Translations under genes and position numbers: made by a program
Shown here: in pieces, positions 27,481-33,456 of the stretch
Layout of the letters: each line of letters begins with the position of its first letter
Position numbering within the stretch: position 1 is the stretch's first letter
The notes under the pieces: model-generated
Seen by the model: only the letters and a program-made list of their open reading frames with translations
What the model was told of the DNA's origin: nothing
Database searches by the model: none
Assembly (NCBI RefSeq): GCF_009914755.1
Contig: NC_060933.1
Length of the DNA stretch: 64,000 bases
From: the human T2T-CHM13v2.0 reference genome, Homo sapiens
Direction: 5' to 3' (one strand)

Positions 27481-29533
27481 CTAATAATAAATGGATCAAT
27501 TCACAAGTAAACATAACAATTCCAAATATATATGCACCAAATAACAAAGTCTTAAACAACATGAAGAGAAAAATTATAGAACTAAAAAATAATAAATTAT
27601 AGTTGTGGGTTTTAACAGCCTTATCTCAGCAATTGATAGAATTATTGGACAAAAATTTAACAATCAGCAAGCATGTAGAAGATCTGTACAGCACAATCAA
27701 CCAACAAGATTTTATTCACACACAAACACACACACACACACACACAGACACACATATACAGATAAATATATATGTCAATTATATATATATCTCTCTCTAA
27801 ATATAGAATCAGTCCACAAAAAACAGCAGAATATACAGTTTTTCAGGAGCTCATGAAATATTAACTAAAATACTAGATGATTTCTTGCACCATAAAACAA
27901 ACGCTGATACATTTAAAAGAATTTATGTCATATAGAGTATGTTCTCTGACCATAATGGAATTAAAATAAAAGTCAGTAACAGAAAGAGAGCAGGAAAATG
28001 TTTAAATGCATTTCACTTATGCAACACAGTTCCAAATGATCTATGGATTAAATATAAAGTCTTAAATAAAAATCTAAAAATATATTTCAACAAATGAAAG
28101 AAAAATACAACATATCAAAATATAGGAAATACAGCTAAGGCTGTGGTGGGAAAGAAATTTATAGTACTAAATGCTTCATTAAAAATAAGAAAAGATCTCA
28201 AATCAATAACTTACACTTGTATCTCAAGAAACTAGAAAAAGAACAGAGTAAACTGAAAGCAGGCAGAAGAAGAAAAATAATCATCACAATAACAAAAATT
28301 CATGAAATTGAAAACAGAAAAAAATGTGAAACAAAAAGCTGGTTTATTGAAAAAATCAATCAATTGATAAACATCTATCAAAACCAACAAAAATAAATAG
28401 AGATGACACAAAACACAACAGCAAATTTTTAAAAAAAAATGCAAATGATCCAATTAGGTAATGGACAAAAGACATCAATGGACGTTTTAACAAGAAAAAT
28501 ATTCAGATGTCAAATAATCCATGAAACATGTTCAATATTATTAATCATCATGGACATGTCAAATAAAACCATAGTGAGATATTTCTACACACCTATCAAA
28601 ATGACTTTTAAAAATTGTGACAATAGCAAAAGCTATTCAGGATGTAAAAAATACGATCACTCATAAGTTGCTAGTGGAAAAGTAAAATAATAGAGCCACT
28701 CTGAAAAATAGTTGACAGTTTTTTAAAAAGACAGACATGTTATTCATTCTTTCCACATTTTTTTTTGTGTGTGTGCTGATTAACCTTCTCTACCTCCTCT
28801 CCAATGCCCCAGTATCCTTACTAGCTTCTGTGGGCACTCAGTGTACCCATAAAATTTTAAGAAAATAATTAAAAATTTTTTAAAGTAAAATAAAAACCAG
28901 ATATGCATAGACCATAGATCCCAGCAATTGCAGTTGTGGGTGTTTAATTTGGAGTGATGAAACTTGTGGTCCCACAAAAACTTGTTCACGAATGTCTACA
29001 ACAGCTTAATTTGTTACAGTTGAAAAGGTCAATAAGCCCAGGTGAATGTTTAATTTGTGGTGAATTTATACCAGAAACCATGAAATACTACTCAGTCATC
29101 AAAGGAACAAAATATTAATTAATGCAATCATTTGGATGTATTTTTAGGAAATTTTGTCGAGTGAATAAAAGTCAATTATATACATTATGTACAACAGTAC
29201 AAGTAGGCCTTGAGACCTACGGGATCATTCTGTGTTGCAGCAAGGCCCTGCCTGCCTCACCAGATGTGGTGAGCCTATCCTATCTCACTCGGAGGGGGCC
29301 AAAATCGGATCTGAAAGGGAGTCTGGAGAACACAGCAGGCATCCTGAAGCTCCACCTCCCTCGGTGGAAGTCGGCTCAAGGAGGTCCTGAGGACAGGACT
29401 CCTAGGGGTTTGGCCCTGGGACAGGACAAGACACCCGCGGCCCCCTCTCCAACGCCGCCCCAAACTGGATCCCGGATCCAGCCGCCGCCATGGCGGCAGG
29501 AAGAACCTCGCTGCCGCCGCCAGGCGGCGGCAG

Positions 29534-29601
29534 TATTTAAAGGGGACGCAGCCATACTGCCAGGAGCGGAGCGCGAGTCCGCTCAGCCAATGCGCATGCG
29601 C
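29534..29601 (-). promoter_or_regulatory. TATA-like + CCAAT + NRF1 module (monomer A)
   Basis: TATTTAAA 29534-29541, CCAAT 29587-29591, TGCGCATGCGC 29591-29601. Confidence 0.6.
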
Positions 29602-29791
29602 GAGGCGGGAGCGGTTTCTCCCGTCACAGTGGTTCCCACGGTTGTCTTAGAAACCAATCCCCGAGGCTTGGCAAAGCAGGAGCCCTCCGTGGCAGTGCTT
29701 GGGTGTCGGGGCTCTGAGGATCCAGCCTGACCTCTCCACGGGGTCGACCTGAACGTCTCCGGATGCCAGGAGTCGCAAAGGGCCGACCACG

Positions 29792-30533
29792 ATGAGGAAA
29801 CCCCAGGCGGGGACGGGGGAAGCAGCACGGGATCCCAGCCTCAGGCCTGCCCGGACGGTGTTGGTTGGGGTGAGTCTCCCCAAAAGTCGTGCCGCCATCC
29901 GTGATCTCGAGGACAGGTCGGCCTGCGTGCCCCTGGGCTGCTCTCTCACCCGAGGGTCTTTCTCGTCGTGAGCAGAACCCCGCAGCCTCAGGGGTTGCCT
30001 GGTGGTGTGTGTTTCAATGCCTCTGCTGTATGACGCTGTGTGTGTGTCTCTGTGTGTGTGTGTGTGTGTGTGTGTCTGTGTGTGTGTCTCCCATTCTCTC
30101 TTCTCTCTCTGTCTCTCAGTCTCTGTGTGTTTCTTTCCCTCTCTCTGTGGGTTTGTGTGTGTATGCCCGTGTGCGTGTGTGTCTTTGGCCGAATGTGCCC
30201 TGTGCGCCACAAAGCGGTTTGTCGCATGGCAGCCTGTCTTTGGTGAGCCTCTTTCTGCTTCTCTGCCTGGGTCATGAGGCCGGCTGTCAATCGTTTTCGC
30301 CGCGGCGGATCCGCTTTGGGTGTCTGAAAGCCTGGCCCACGTGAGGAGATGCGTCGCTCCCGGAGCAACTGAAATCTCAACCCCATCATGAGTGGCCTCT
30401 TTTCTAGGATCAAGATGAGTACACTGCAGCCGAGAACAAGAGCCCCAGAGGAACTCTTTGTCCCACAGGAGAGCAGCGGATCCACGCAAGAGAACATGCT
30501 TGTATCTTTTCACGGCTCTTCTCTGAGAAATGA
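29792..30533 (+). ncRNA. FAM27C: FAM27A/B/C-type two-exon transcript unit with an intact 67-aa ORF (join 29792-29869, 30408-30533); generally regarded as lncRNA
   Basis: Donor GGG|GTGAGT at 29870 and acceptor TTTCTAG| at 30407 give [67 protein letters not shown], matching my recollection of FAM27A/B/C; paralog not resolved. Confidence 0.75.
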
Positions 30534-31648: not shown

Positions 31649-33058
31649 TAGGCCTTGAGACCTATGGGATCATTGTGTGCTGCAGCGAGGCCCTGCCGGC
31701 CTCTCCAGATGTGGTGAGCCCATCCTATCTCACTCGGAGGGGGCCAGAATCGGATCTCAACGGGAGTCCGGAGAACACAGCAGGCGTCCTGAAGCTCCCC
31801 CTCCCTCCGTGGAAGTCGGCTCAAGCAGGTCCTGAGGACAGGACCCCTGGGGGTTTGGGCTTGGGACAGGACGAGACACCCGCGGCCCCCTCTCCCACGC
31901 CGCCCCAAACAGGACCCAGGATCCAGCCGCCGCCACAGCGGCAGCAGGAGCATCGCGGCCGCCGCGGGGCGGTGGCAATATTTAAAGGGGACGCAGCCTA
32001 TCTGTCCGGAGCGGAGCGCGAGTCCGCTCAGCCAATGCGCATGCGCGAGGCGCGAGCAGTTTCTCCCATCACAGTGGTTCCCACGGTTGTCTTAGAAACC
32101 AGTCCCCGAGGCTTGGCAGAGCAGGAGCCCTCCGTGGCAGTGCTTGGGTGTCCAGGCTCTGAGGCTCCGGCCTCACCTCTCCACGGGGTCGAAGGGAACG
32201 TCTCCGGATGCCAGGAGTCGCAAAGGGCCGACCATGATGATGAAACCCCAGGCGGAGACGGGGGAAGCAGCACGGGATCCCAGCCTCAGGCCTGCACAGA
32301 CGGTGTTGGTTGGGGTGAGTCTCCCCAAAAGTCGTGCCGCCGTCCATGATCTCGAGGACGGGTCGGCCTGCGTGCCCCTGGGCTCCTCTCTCACCGGAGG
32401 GTCGTTCTCCTCCAGAGCAGAACCCCGCAGCCTCAGGGGTTGCCTGGGGGTGTGTGTTTCAATGCCTCTGCTGTATGACTCTGTGTGTGTGTGTGTGTGT
32501 GTCTGTGTGTGTGTCTCCCATTCTCTCTTCTCTCTCTGTCTCTCAGTCTCTGTGTGTTTCTTTCCCACTCTCTGTGGGTTTGTGACAGCCGAAGTTACGT
32601 CAGGGCTACCAGGTCGATGGAGGATTGGGGGTGTTGCGAATTTTGCAGAAACCTCTTTGCTCCTCCGGTAGGCATTTGAAAACGTGGCTTGGGTCAGGCA
32701 CAGGCGGCTCCCCCACCCCCCGGGTCCCAGGTGTTCTTTGATTTTCCTTGGCATTGATGGAAAGGTCACCGGTTTCCTCCTTCCACCGCCACATGCCTGG
32801 ACCCCACCCTTTGTTTCGCCGTCGCCCCTTATGCCTCCGGTGAGACACATTCACACCAACTGCTGTGGGATTGGCCAGTGCCACGCGTGGTCACATGGTC
32901 TCCCCCTCGGATTCGCCTGTTTTCCTCTTTGCAGGTGTCGTGTAAAGCGTGGTCGGCTTTCTGGAACCGCAGGGCCTTTAGAAGTGGGGCAGGCCACTGC
33001 TCTTTCAAAGGAGGAGGGAGGCAGAGGGCTGATGGATCAGTGAATTTTCAGCTGACTC
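31649..33058 (+). repeat. SST1 monomer B (1410 bp, ~1-kb internal deletion)
   Basis: Junction gggtttgtg|acagccgaagtt at 32584/32585 skips the equivalent of ~30158-31177. Confidence 0.9.
31979..32046 (-). promoter_or_regulatory. TATA-like + CCAAT + NRF1 module (monomer B)
   Basis: Same three motifs intact with the same spacing. Confidence 0.6.
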
Positions 33059-33388
33059 TAGGCCTTGAGAATTATGAGATCATTCTGTGCTGCAGCGAGG
33101 CCCTGCCGGCCTCACCAGTTTTTGTGAGCCCATCCTATCTCACTGGGAGGGGGCCAAAATCGGATCTCAACGGGAGTCCGGAGAACACAGCAGGAGTCCT
33201 GAAGCTCCCCCTCCCTCGGAGGAAGTCGGCTCAAGCAGGTCCTGAGGACAGGACCCCTGGGGGTTTGGGCCTGGGAAAGGACGAGACTCCCGCGGCCCCC
33301 TCTCCCACGCCACCCCAAACAGGACCCAGGATCCAGCCGCCGCCATGGCGGCAGCAGGAGCATCGCGGCCGCCAGGCGACGGTGGCGA

Positions 33389-33456
33389 TATTTAAAGGGG
33401 ACGTAGCCTGACTGCCAGGAGCTGAGCGCGAATCGTCCCAGCCAATGCGCATGCGC
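33389..33456 (-). promoter_or_regulatory. TATA-like + CCAAT + NRF1 module (monomer C)
   Basis: Same three motifs intact with the same spacing. Confidence 0.6.

What the first reader, a model, noticed from the sequence alone, without database searches (positions are those of the whole stretch)
29484..33456. Each direct SST1 monomer carries a Pol II promoter cassette that is decayed in the inverted copies
Seen: TATTTAAA, CCAAT and an NRF1 site TGCGCATGCGC are intact with identical spacing in A, B and C. In D the NRF1 and CCAAT sites are mutated (cgcgcatgtgcactga, ~35863-35880). In E the NRF1 and TATA sites are mutated (gcgcatgagcattgg; ccccttcaaaga). Known: NRF1 binding is blocked by CpG methylation, and NBL2/SST1 loses methylation in some tumours and in ICF cells. 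Inference: the array is a set of methylation-gated, probably bidirectional promoters driving FAM27 on + and a second transcript on -.
Basis: partly seen in the sequence, partly recalled or inferred. Interest (0 to 1): 0.7.

Follow-up and report, generated by a model that had tools for sequence, protein, structure and literature searches.

The report
Two-way promoter inside SST1 repeat copies
Copies of a known primate repeat (SST1/NBL2) on chromosome 9 carry a short set of promoter motifs that likely start RNA in both directions, which is largely known, and the changes in the two flipped copies are no more than their general ageing.

Summary
The motifs are confirmed. A, B and C carry TATTTAAA, then CCAAT 53 bp later, overlapping a perfect NRF1 site. 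D and E carry the stated changes. The composite is not chance (0 of 20,000 simulations), but it is one ancestral event. Promoter activity of NBL2 monomers and divergent Pol II peaks in chr9 SST1 copies are already published. The motif assignment was not found in my searches. 'Decayed in inverted copies' is overstated: 6 of 46 motif bases changed against 89 of 936 flanking bases (p 0.44). D keeps its TATA, and its exact NRF1 variant binds only 2-fold weaker in published ITC data (E: 7-fold). The TATA spacing fits leftward firing in A-C, not the FAM27-like model's start 86 nt away. Published FAM27E3 oligos map through E in the TATA direction, across an intron found only in E. So E's cassette lies inside a 3' exon, and D may be that RNA's promoter. 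Methylation gating at this locus is unproven and partly contradicted. Verdict: mostly known, with a testable NRF1 hypothesis.

The parts
29204..31648 (+). SST1 copy A, full 2445-bp unit (sf2/MER22-like length), no NotI site
31649..33058 (+). SST1 copy B, 1410-bp unit lacking about 1020 bp (A 30158-31176); NotI site at 31955; NBL2/sf1-like anatomy
   Evidence: features
33059..35446 (+). SST1 copy C, 2388 bp, NotI site at 33365, cut at the inversion junction
35445..36263 (-). SST1 copy D, inverted, partial (819 bp), ends at the inversion junction 35445/35446
36264..38364 (-). SST1 copy E, inverted, 2101 bp, head-to-tail with D, cut about 10 bp beyond its TATA position
29534..29601 (.). Cassette A: TATA-like 8-mer (one mismatch on either strand), CCAAT 29587-29591, NRF1 site 29591-29601; all intact
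31979..32046 (.). Cassette B, all motifs intact
33389..33456 (.). Cassette C, all motifs intact
35864..35931 (.). Cassette D: TATA intact and facing window plus strand, CCAAT lost, NRF1 with one change (about 2-fold weaker in published ITC)
38287..38354 (.). Cassette E: CCAAT intact, TATA lost, NRF1 with one change (about 7-fold weaker); lies inside the 3' exon of the FAM27E3-type RNA
29620..30817 (+). Predicted lncRNA LOC105379444 (exons 29620-29869, 30408-30817), the NRF1-side, TATA-less direction. Donor GT present in all five copies; acceptor AG present in A, C and E
   Evidence: hub annotation
37182..37356 (+). 175-nt GT-AG intron spanned by a published FAM27E3 junction primer; donor and acceptor present only in E, not in A or C
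37523..37903 (+). FAM27 D/E-family ORF in E (126 aa, PF15832 144 bits)
38509..38820 (+). 3' part of the FAM27E3-type RNA in unique flank: 4 published oligos (0, 1, 0 and 0 mismatches) and AATAAA at 38815
29988..30497 (-). FAM27 D/E-family ORF in A (PF15832 128 bits)
33845..34342 (-). FAM27 D/E-family ORF in C (PF15832 121 bits)

Best explanation
This is a five-copy SST1/NBL2 cluster at a FAM27 paralog in which each unit inherits one ancestral CpG-island cassette that likely acts as a divergent Pol II promoter, with NRF1 as its likely core activator. One arm is likely TATA-less and starts about 20 nt past the NRF1 site (plus strand in A-C, LOC105379444; by inference also the TNBL direction). 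The other arm likely uses CCAAT at about -77 and the TATA at about -30, fires the opposite way, and would read the FAM27 D/E frame of the neighbouring unit. The changes in D and E are part of a general ageing of their 5' CpG island, not targeted loss. E's cassette is cut and buried in the 3' exon of a FAM27E3-type spliced RNA and is likely dead. D is likely weakened but not dead and is the nearest candidate promoter for that RNA. CpG methylation would block NRF1 where the island is methylated, but these chr9 copies are likely often unmethylated rather than normally locked.
For: Shown: motifs, spacing and non-chance composite. CpG-island composition around NRF1 in A-D (CpG o/e 0.73, 0.72, 0.67, 0.61; E 0.43, whose window includes flank). 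The predicted 5' end is 19 nt after NRF1 and 86 nt after the TATA; a CA step lies 29 nt (A) and 31 nt (D) from the TATA read the other way. Motif changes in D/E match their flanks (p 0.44). CpG count in the shared 498-bp segment is 39, 36, 36 vs 27, 26, and E's 5' part is more diverged than its body (49 of 366 vs 78 of 1424). Six of six published FAM27E3 oligos map to E or its flank in the TATA direction, 5 exactly (one across an E-only intron) and 1 with one mismatch. Literature: monomer promoter activity; opposed PRO-seq peaks and under 50% methylation in chr9 monomers in CHM13; ITC of the exact D and E variants; NRF1 methylation sensitivity.
Against: No occupancy, TSS or methylation data for these copies could be examined. 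The CCAAT overlaps the NRF1 site and fails the recalled NF-Y flank pattern RRCCAATSR (0 hits in the array), so NF-Y may play no part. The TATA has one mismatch on both strands, so its direction rests on spacing only. Conservation of the 23 motif bases in A-C is only marginal (0 of 69 vs 65 of 1410, p 0.07; 71 of 1096 slid masks are also invariant). RefSeq has no model over D/E or leftward of A-C in this window. The FAM27E3 RNA was measured for a paralog, and its 5' end was not seen. From recall (unchecked), the annotated model spans only about 1.8 kb, which would start it about 1.1 kb downstream of D's TATA. In a TFAM reporter any single NRF1 change cut activity about 3-fold. A chr9 hybrid made no NBL2 RNA after AZA/TSA.
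Confidence: 0.6

Rival explanations
1. One reading: normally methylation-locked promoters in the direct copies, switched on by demethylation, with the inverted copies specifically inactivated.
For: Both inverted copies are hit at the same NRF1 base by different changes. They have lost CpGs (81 of 99 vs 44 of 66 kept, p 0.04, cells not independent). chr9-specific SST1 amplicons lose methylation in colorectal tumours (PMC6924650). Acrocentric NBL2 is induced by AZA/TSA.
Against: Motif changes are no more frequent than flank changes. There is only one inversion event. D keeps its TATA and a near-normal NRF1 site. The chr9 hybrid was not induced. Methylated chr4/19 arrays are highly transcribed in CHM13.
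Confidence: 0.2
2. NRF1 alone explains the activity: a plain CpG-island promoter with divergent initiation, where the TATA-like and CCAAT words are passengers and the FAM27E3-type RNA starts elsewhere (inside E, or as read-through from C).
For: CCAAT overlaps the NRF1 site and lacks the recalled NF-Y flanks. The TATA has a mismatch either way. The only annotated start is TATA-less. The E donor is 1257 bp from D's TATA.
Against: CCAAT-TATA spacing is textbook for one direction, and the composite is rare in simulations. The TATA is intact in 4 of 5 copies.
Confidence: 0.3
3. The cassette was functional in ancestral or other SST1 arrays, and in this paralog all copies are neutrally decaying relics; A-C are intact by luck.
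For: Copies are 82-90% identical with a star-like relationship. Motif conservation in A-C is marginal. There was no chr9 RNA in hybrids. Short-read PRO-seq on repeats can be misassigned.
Against: A-C keep CpG-island levels of CpG. A predicted spliced model starts at A. chr9 monomers are reported as highly transcribed.
Confidence: 0.15

Closest known systems
NBL2/SST1-sf1 internal promoter and TNBL lncRNA (PMC6009586)
   Same: Same repeat family. Monomers have promoter activity. B has the 1.4-kb unit anatomy. By inference from how the unit start is described, TNBL runs in the direction of LOC105379444.
   Different: TNBL comes from large acrocentric arrays, not chr9. That paper names no NRF1, TATA or FAM27 in its main text (0 occurrences; supplement unread). 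Here 2.4-kb and 1.4-kb units are mixed and partly inverted.
Divergent PRO-seq peaks in SST1 of CHM13 (10.1101/2021.07.12.451456)
   Same: Two closely spaced opposed Pol II peaks per transcribed SST1, including chr9 monomers.
   Different: No motif or per-copy assignment in the text searched (NRF1, TATA, FAM27: 0 occurrences). It reports that methylation does not silence chr4/19 arrays.
TERRA subtelomeric repeat promoters gated by NRF1 and methylation (PMC6600276)
   Same: A CpG-rich repeat promoter with a methyl-sensitive NRF1 input driving a lncRNA.
   Different: Shown there by targeted demethylation and NRF1 binding; untested for SST1. The repeat is unrelated.
FAM27 gene family (Pfam PF15832; FAM27E3)
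   Same: Three ORFs hit PF15832, and FAM27E3 oligos map to E and its flank.
   Different: This is a paralog (1 primer mismatch; ORF 94% identical to the named human hit P0004) with no RefSeq model over E. A link between FAM27 and SST1 was not found in print.

Membership tests
NBL2 / SST1-sf1 unit (copy B) | Unit of about 1.4 kb, about 62% G+C | tested here: met
   B is 1410 bp, 61.1% G+C; definition
NBL2 / SST1-sf1 unit (copy B) | Unit starts with a GA-rich stretch followed by CA repeats | tested here: met
   Minus strand of B from 32584; definition
NBL2 / SST1-sf1 unit (copy B) | NotI site | tested here: met
   31955 in B and 33365 in C; none in A, D or E
NBL2 / SST1-sf1 unit (copy B) | Large central gap relative to sf2 units | tested here: inconclusive
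   B lacks about 1020 bp present in A, C and E; whether the breakpoints equal the sf1 gap could not be checked
NBL2 / SST1-sf1 array | Long homogeneous tandem array, about 99% identity | tested here: not met
   One B-type unit; copies are 82-90% identical
SST1 (any subfamily) | Alignment to the SST1 consensus or published monomers | not testable with these tools
   No human repeat library is held and primer tables were unreadable. Assignment rests on anatomy and on reports of chr9 NBL2 copies mixed with NBL2-like ones
FAM27 D/E (PF15832) | Score above the Pfam gathering cut-off | tested here: met
   3 of 9 ORFs scanned: 144, 128 and 121 bits vs 30.8
TATA+CCAAT Pol II promoter, plus-strand (FAM27-like) direction | TATA about 30 nt upstream of the start, CCAAT upstream of the TATA | tested here: not met
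   The TATA is 86 nt upstream of the predicted 5' end and the CCAAT lies downstream of the TATA
TATA+CCAAT Pol II promoter, opposite direction | CCAAT at -60 to -100, TATA near -30, mapped start | tested here: inconclusive
   Spacing fits (CCAAT about -79 to -75, CA step 29-31 nt from the TATA); no mapped start; recalled NF-Y flank pattern not met
NRF1-gated repeat promoter (TERRA type) | NRF1 consensus GCGCATGCGC in a CpG island | tested here: met
   Perfect in A, B and C
NRF1-gated repeat promoter (TERRA type) | NRF1 occupancy and RNA rise on demethylation, lost on NRF1 depletion | not testable with these tools
   No ChIP or methylation data here; the chr9 hybrid result argues against

The most novel reading that the evidence does not exclude
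The NRF1 palindrome is the methylation switch of the SST1/NBL2 macrosatellite family, releasing TNBL-type RNA in demethylated tumours and germ cells. The FAM27 genes are its by-products: FAM27A/B/C-type RNAs from the TATA-less arm, and FAM27E3-type RNA from the TATA arm of inverted copy D after neighbouring copy E gained its own splice sites and a flank polyA signal.
Probability: 0.3. Interest if true: 0.55.

Novelty: new member of a known kind. Interest (0 to 1): 0.3.

Why it matters
SST1/NBL2 hypomethylation is a long-used cancer and ICF marker, and the repeat is known to hold a promoter, but the paper that showed this left the responsible factors open. A perfect NRF1 site 80 bp from the NotI site that the marker assays read gives one direct test. 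Mapping FAM27E3 into the repeat also explains what this frequently reported 'prognostic lncRNA' is. The effect is modest: it fills in a mechanism of a known type (as for TERRA) and does not reveal a new system.

Tried and rejected
Motif-specific decay in D/E: rejected (p 0.44; D alone 3 of 23 vs 36 of 469, E alone 3 of 23 vs 53 of 467). The majority base used for these counts leans towards A-C, so group divergence rates are approximate. A shared D/E lineage: not supported (1 of 12 two-versus-three columns groups D with E). TATA as the core element of LOC105379444: rejected on distance. Protein function for the other ORFs: 6 of 9 scanned have no Pfam hit. PRDM9 13-mer (recalled motif): present at the same place in A-D, so it does not single out B. 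The bacterial promoter scan is not applicable. SST1 remnants outside the array: none. Direct sequence proof of SST1 membership through published primers: tables were unreadable or pictures. Searches for the motif assignment in print: FAM27+SST1 0 papers; NRF1+SST1+repeat 3 papers, all unrelated by title; NRF1 with NBL2, MER22 or SST1 terms, only 1 of 11 listed papers holds NRF1, a review not read; NBL2+TATA 7 papers, listing only. Subscription journals, the published Science version and unread supplements could still contain it.
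Full report
Anatomy. A self-comparison of the window shows one cluster of related units at 29204-38364. These are A (2445 bp), B (1410 bp) and C (2388 bp) on the plus strand, then an inverted block of partial D (819 bp) and E (2101 bp) joined head-to-tail, with the junction at 35445/35446. Pairwise identity is 82-90%. B lacks about 1020 bp of the long unit, has a NotI site and 61% G+C, and on its minus strand starts with a GA-rich stretch and CA repeats. These are the published marks of the 1.4-kb NBL2 unit (PMC6009586 section 24; PMC5687341 passages; sf1 central gap, PMC12657243 passages). 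The first of these papers says chr9 holds NBL2 copies mixed with NBL2-like ones (section 28). I could not align to a consensus, so SST1 membership rests on anatomy. Three of 9 ORFs scanned hit PF15832 FAM27, with ape and human relatives (44 hits among 508 candidates).

Observation. The three motifs are intact with identical spacing in A-C, and D and E carry the stated changes. The five copies are the only matches to the NRF1 10-mer within one mismatch (0.19 expected). The relaxed composite arose in 0 of 20,000 simulations of the local island. It is real, but it is one inherited event, and the pattern was chosen after the fact.

Is the decay specific? No. Against the majority base, D and E changed 6 of 46 motif bases and 89 of 936 flanking bases (p 0.44). 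A-C changed 0 of 69 against 65 of 1410 (p 0.07), and 71 of 1096 slid masks are also invariant in A-C. What does differ is the whole 5' island. CpG counts in the shared segment are 39, 36, 36 against 27, 26, and E's 5' part is 2.4 times more diverged than its body (49 of 366 vs 78 of 1424). D and E are one inversion, so orientation cannot be tested as a cause. Published ITC covers both variants exactly: wild type 0.31 uM, D-type change 0.66 uM, E-type change 2.23 uM. The same paper found about 3-fold lower reporter activity for any single change in the TFAM site (PMC10810270 passages and part of Table 2).

Direction. The TATA-like 8-mer has one mismatch to the recalled consensus on both strands. 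Read on the plus strand it lies upstream of CCAAT and 86 nt before the predicted LOC105379444 5' end, which is 19 nt after the NRF1 site, so that arm is TATA-less. Read the other way, the order is NRF1, CCAAT at about -77, TATA at about -30, with a CA step 29 nt (A) or 31 nt (D) away. That is textbook spacing, but no start is mapped. The CCAAT overlaps the NRF1 site and lacks the recalled NF-Y flanks. PMC6009586 calls TNBL antisense to a unit that starts with the GA/CA stretch. I infer that this is the TATA-less arm.

The second transcript exists in print as FAM27E3. Six oligos from two papers (PMC12343231 and PMC11442270, passages) all map to E or its right flank in the TATA direction. Five match exactly and one has a single mismatch. 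One exact match spans a 175-nt GT-AG intron (37182-37356) whose donor and acceptor exist in E but not in A or C. The RNA crosses the best-scoring FAM27 ORF and E's own cut cassette, and reaches an AATAAA at 38815. So E's cassette sits in a 3' exon. D's intact TATA points into this unit from 1257 bp upstream of the donor and is the nearest candidate promoter. This step is inferred. The RNA was measured for a paralog, RefSeq shows no model here, and from unchecked recall the annotated model is too short to reach D.

Methylation. NRF1 is methylation-sensitive (PMC9729108 passages), gates TERRA repeat promoters (PMC6600276 abstract) and is reported to activate demethylated retrotransposons in the germline (PMC12420836: listing seen, and a term search found no SST1). 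chr9-specific SST1 amplicons lose methylation in colon tumours (PMC6924650 passages). Against gating here: a chr9 hybrid gave no NBL2 RNA after AZA/TSA (rodent background, NBL2-type primers). In CHM13, chr9 monomers are under 50% methylated and transcribed, while methylated chr4/19 arrays are transcribed too (10.1101/2021.07.12.451456 section 8 part 1 of 2). A-C keep CpG-island levels of CpG, which fits long-term germline hypomethylation.

What is known. Monomer promoter activity and paired opposed Pol II peaks are published. The first paper notes more than 30 factor consensus sites whose role was still under study. NRF1, TATA and FAM27 do not occur in the main text of either paper, and my searches found no paper making the link. 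Supplements I could not read (and bioRxiv files) and subscription papers may contain it. Other papers seen as passages only: PMC8582499 (plus supplement searches), 10.64898/2025.12.22.696095 (chr9 SST1 as a relic of an acrocentric past) and PMC3579934 (nothing used).

Verdict. The divergent SST1 promoter is known. The NRF1-centred motif assignment and the placing of FAM27E3-type RNA in the inverted block look unreported and are easy to test. 'Decayed in inverted copies' and 'methylation-gated' are not established for this locus. Interest 0.3.

Noticed in passing
31649-33058: A single 1.4-kb NBL2/sf1-like unit between 2.4-kb units. It recalls acrocentric arrays, where sf1 arrays lie near sf2 monomers, and chr9 is reported as formerly acrocentric. 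It may be an unamplified sf1-type relic.
   Followed up: partly
35445-35446: The inversion junction between C and D falls where the two orientations share a few bases of microhomology. D's plus-type exon 1 keeps its donor but has lost its acceptor, and it points into C's FAM27 ORF on the minus strand.
   Followed up: partly
29484-29497 and 33339-33352: A 14-bp perfect palindrome holding a strong Kozak-like ATG on both strands, just past the predicted start of the TATA arm in A and C. In C it opens a 59-aa frame (33167-33346, minus) with no Pfam hit.
   Followed up: partly
29807, 32252, 33662, 35647: A match to the recalled PRDM9 13-mer at the same place in A, B, C and D.
   Followed up: no
44001-45000: A separate CpG island with a NotI site (44635) and a perfect 18-bp G-rich tandem repeat (44677-44870, 10.8 copies) beside the 5' end of LOC107987069.
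   Followed up: no
58953-59784: A 52-bp C-rich tandem repeat, 16 copies, 80% matches.
   Followed up: no
P0008: A FAM27-family protein deposited under a bacterial name, 86% identical to the E ORF; likely human DNA contamination of that record.
   Followed up: no
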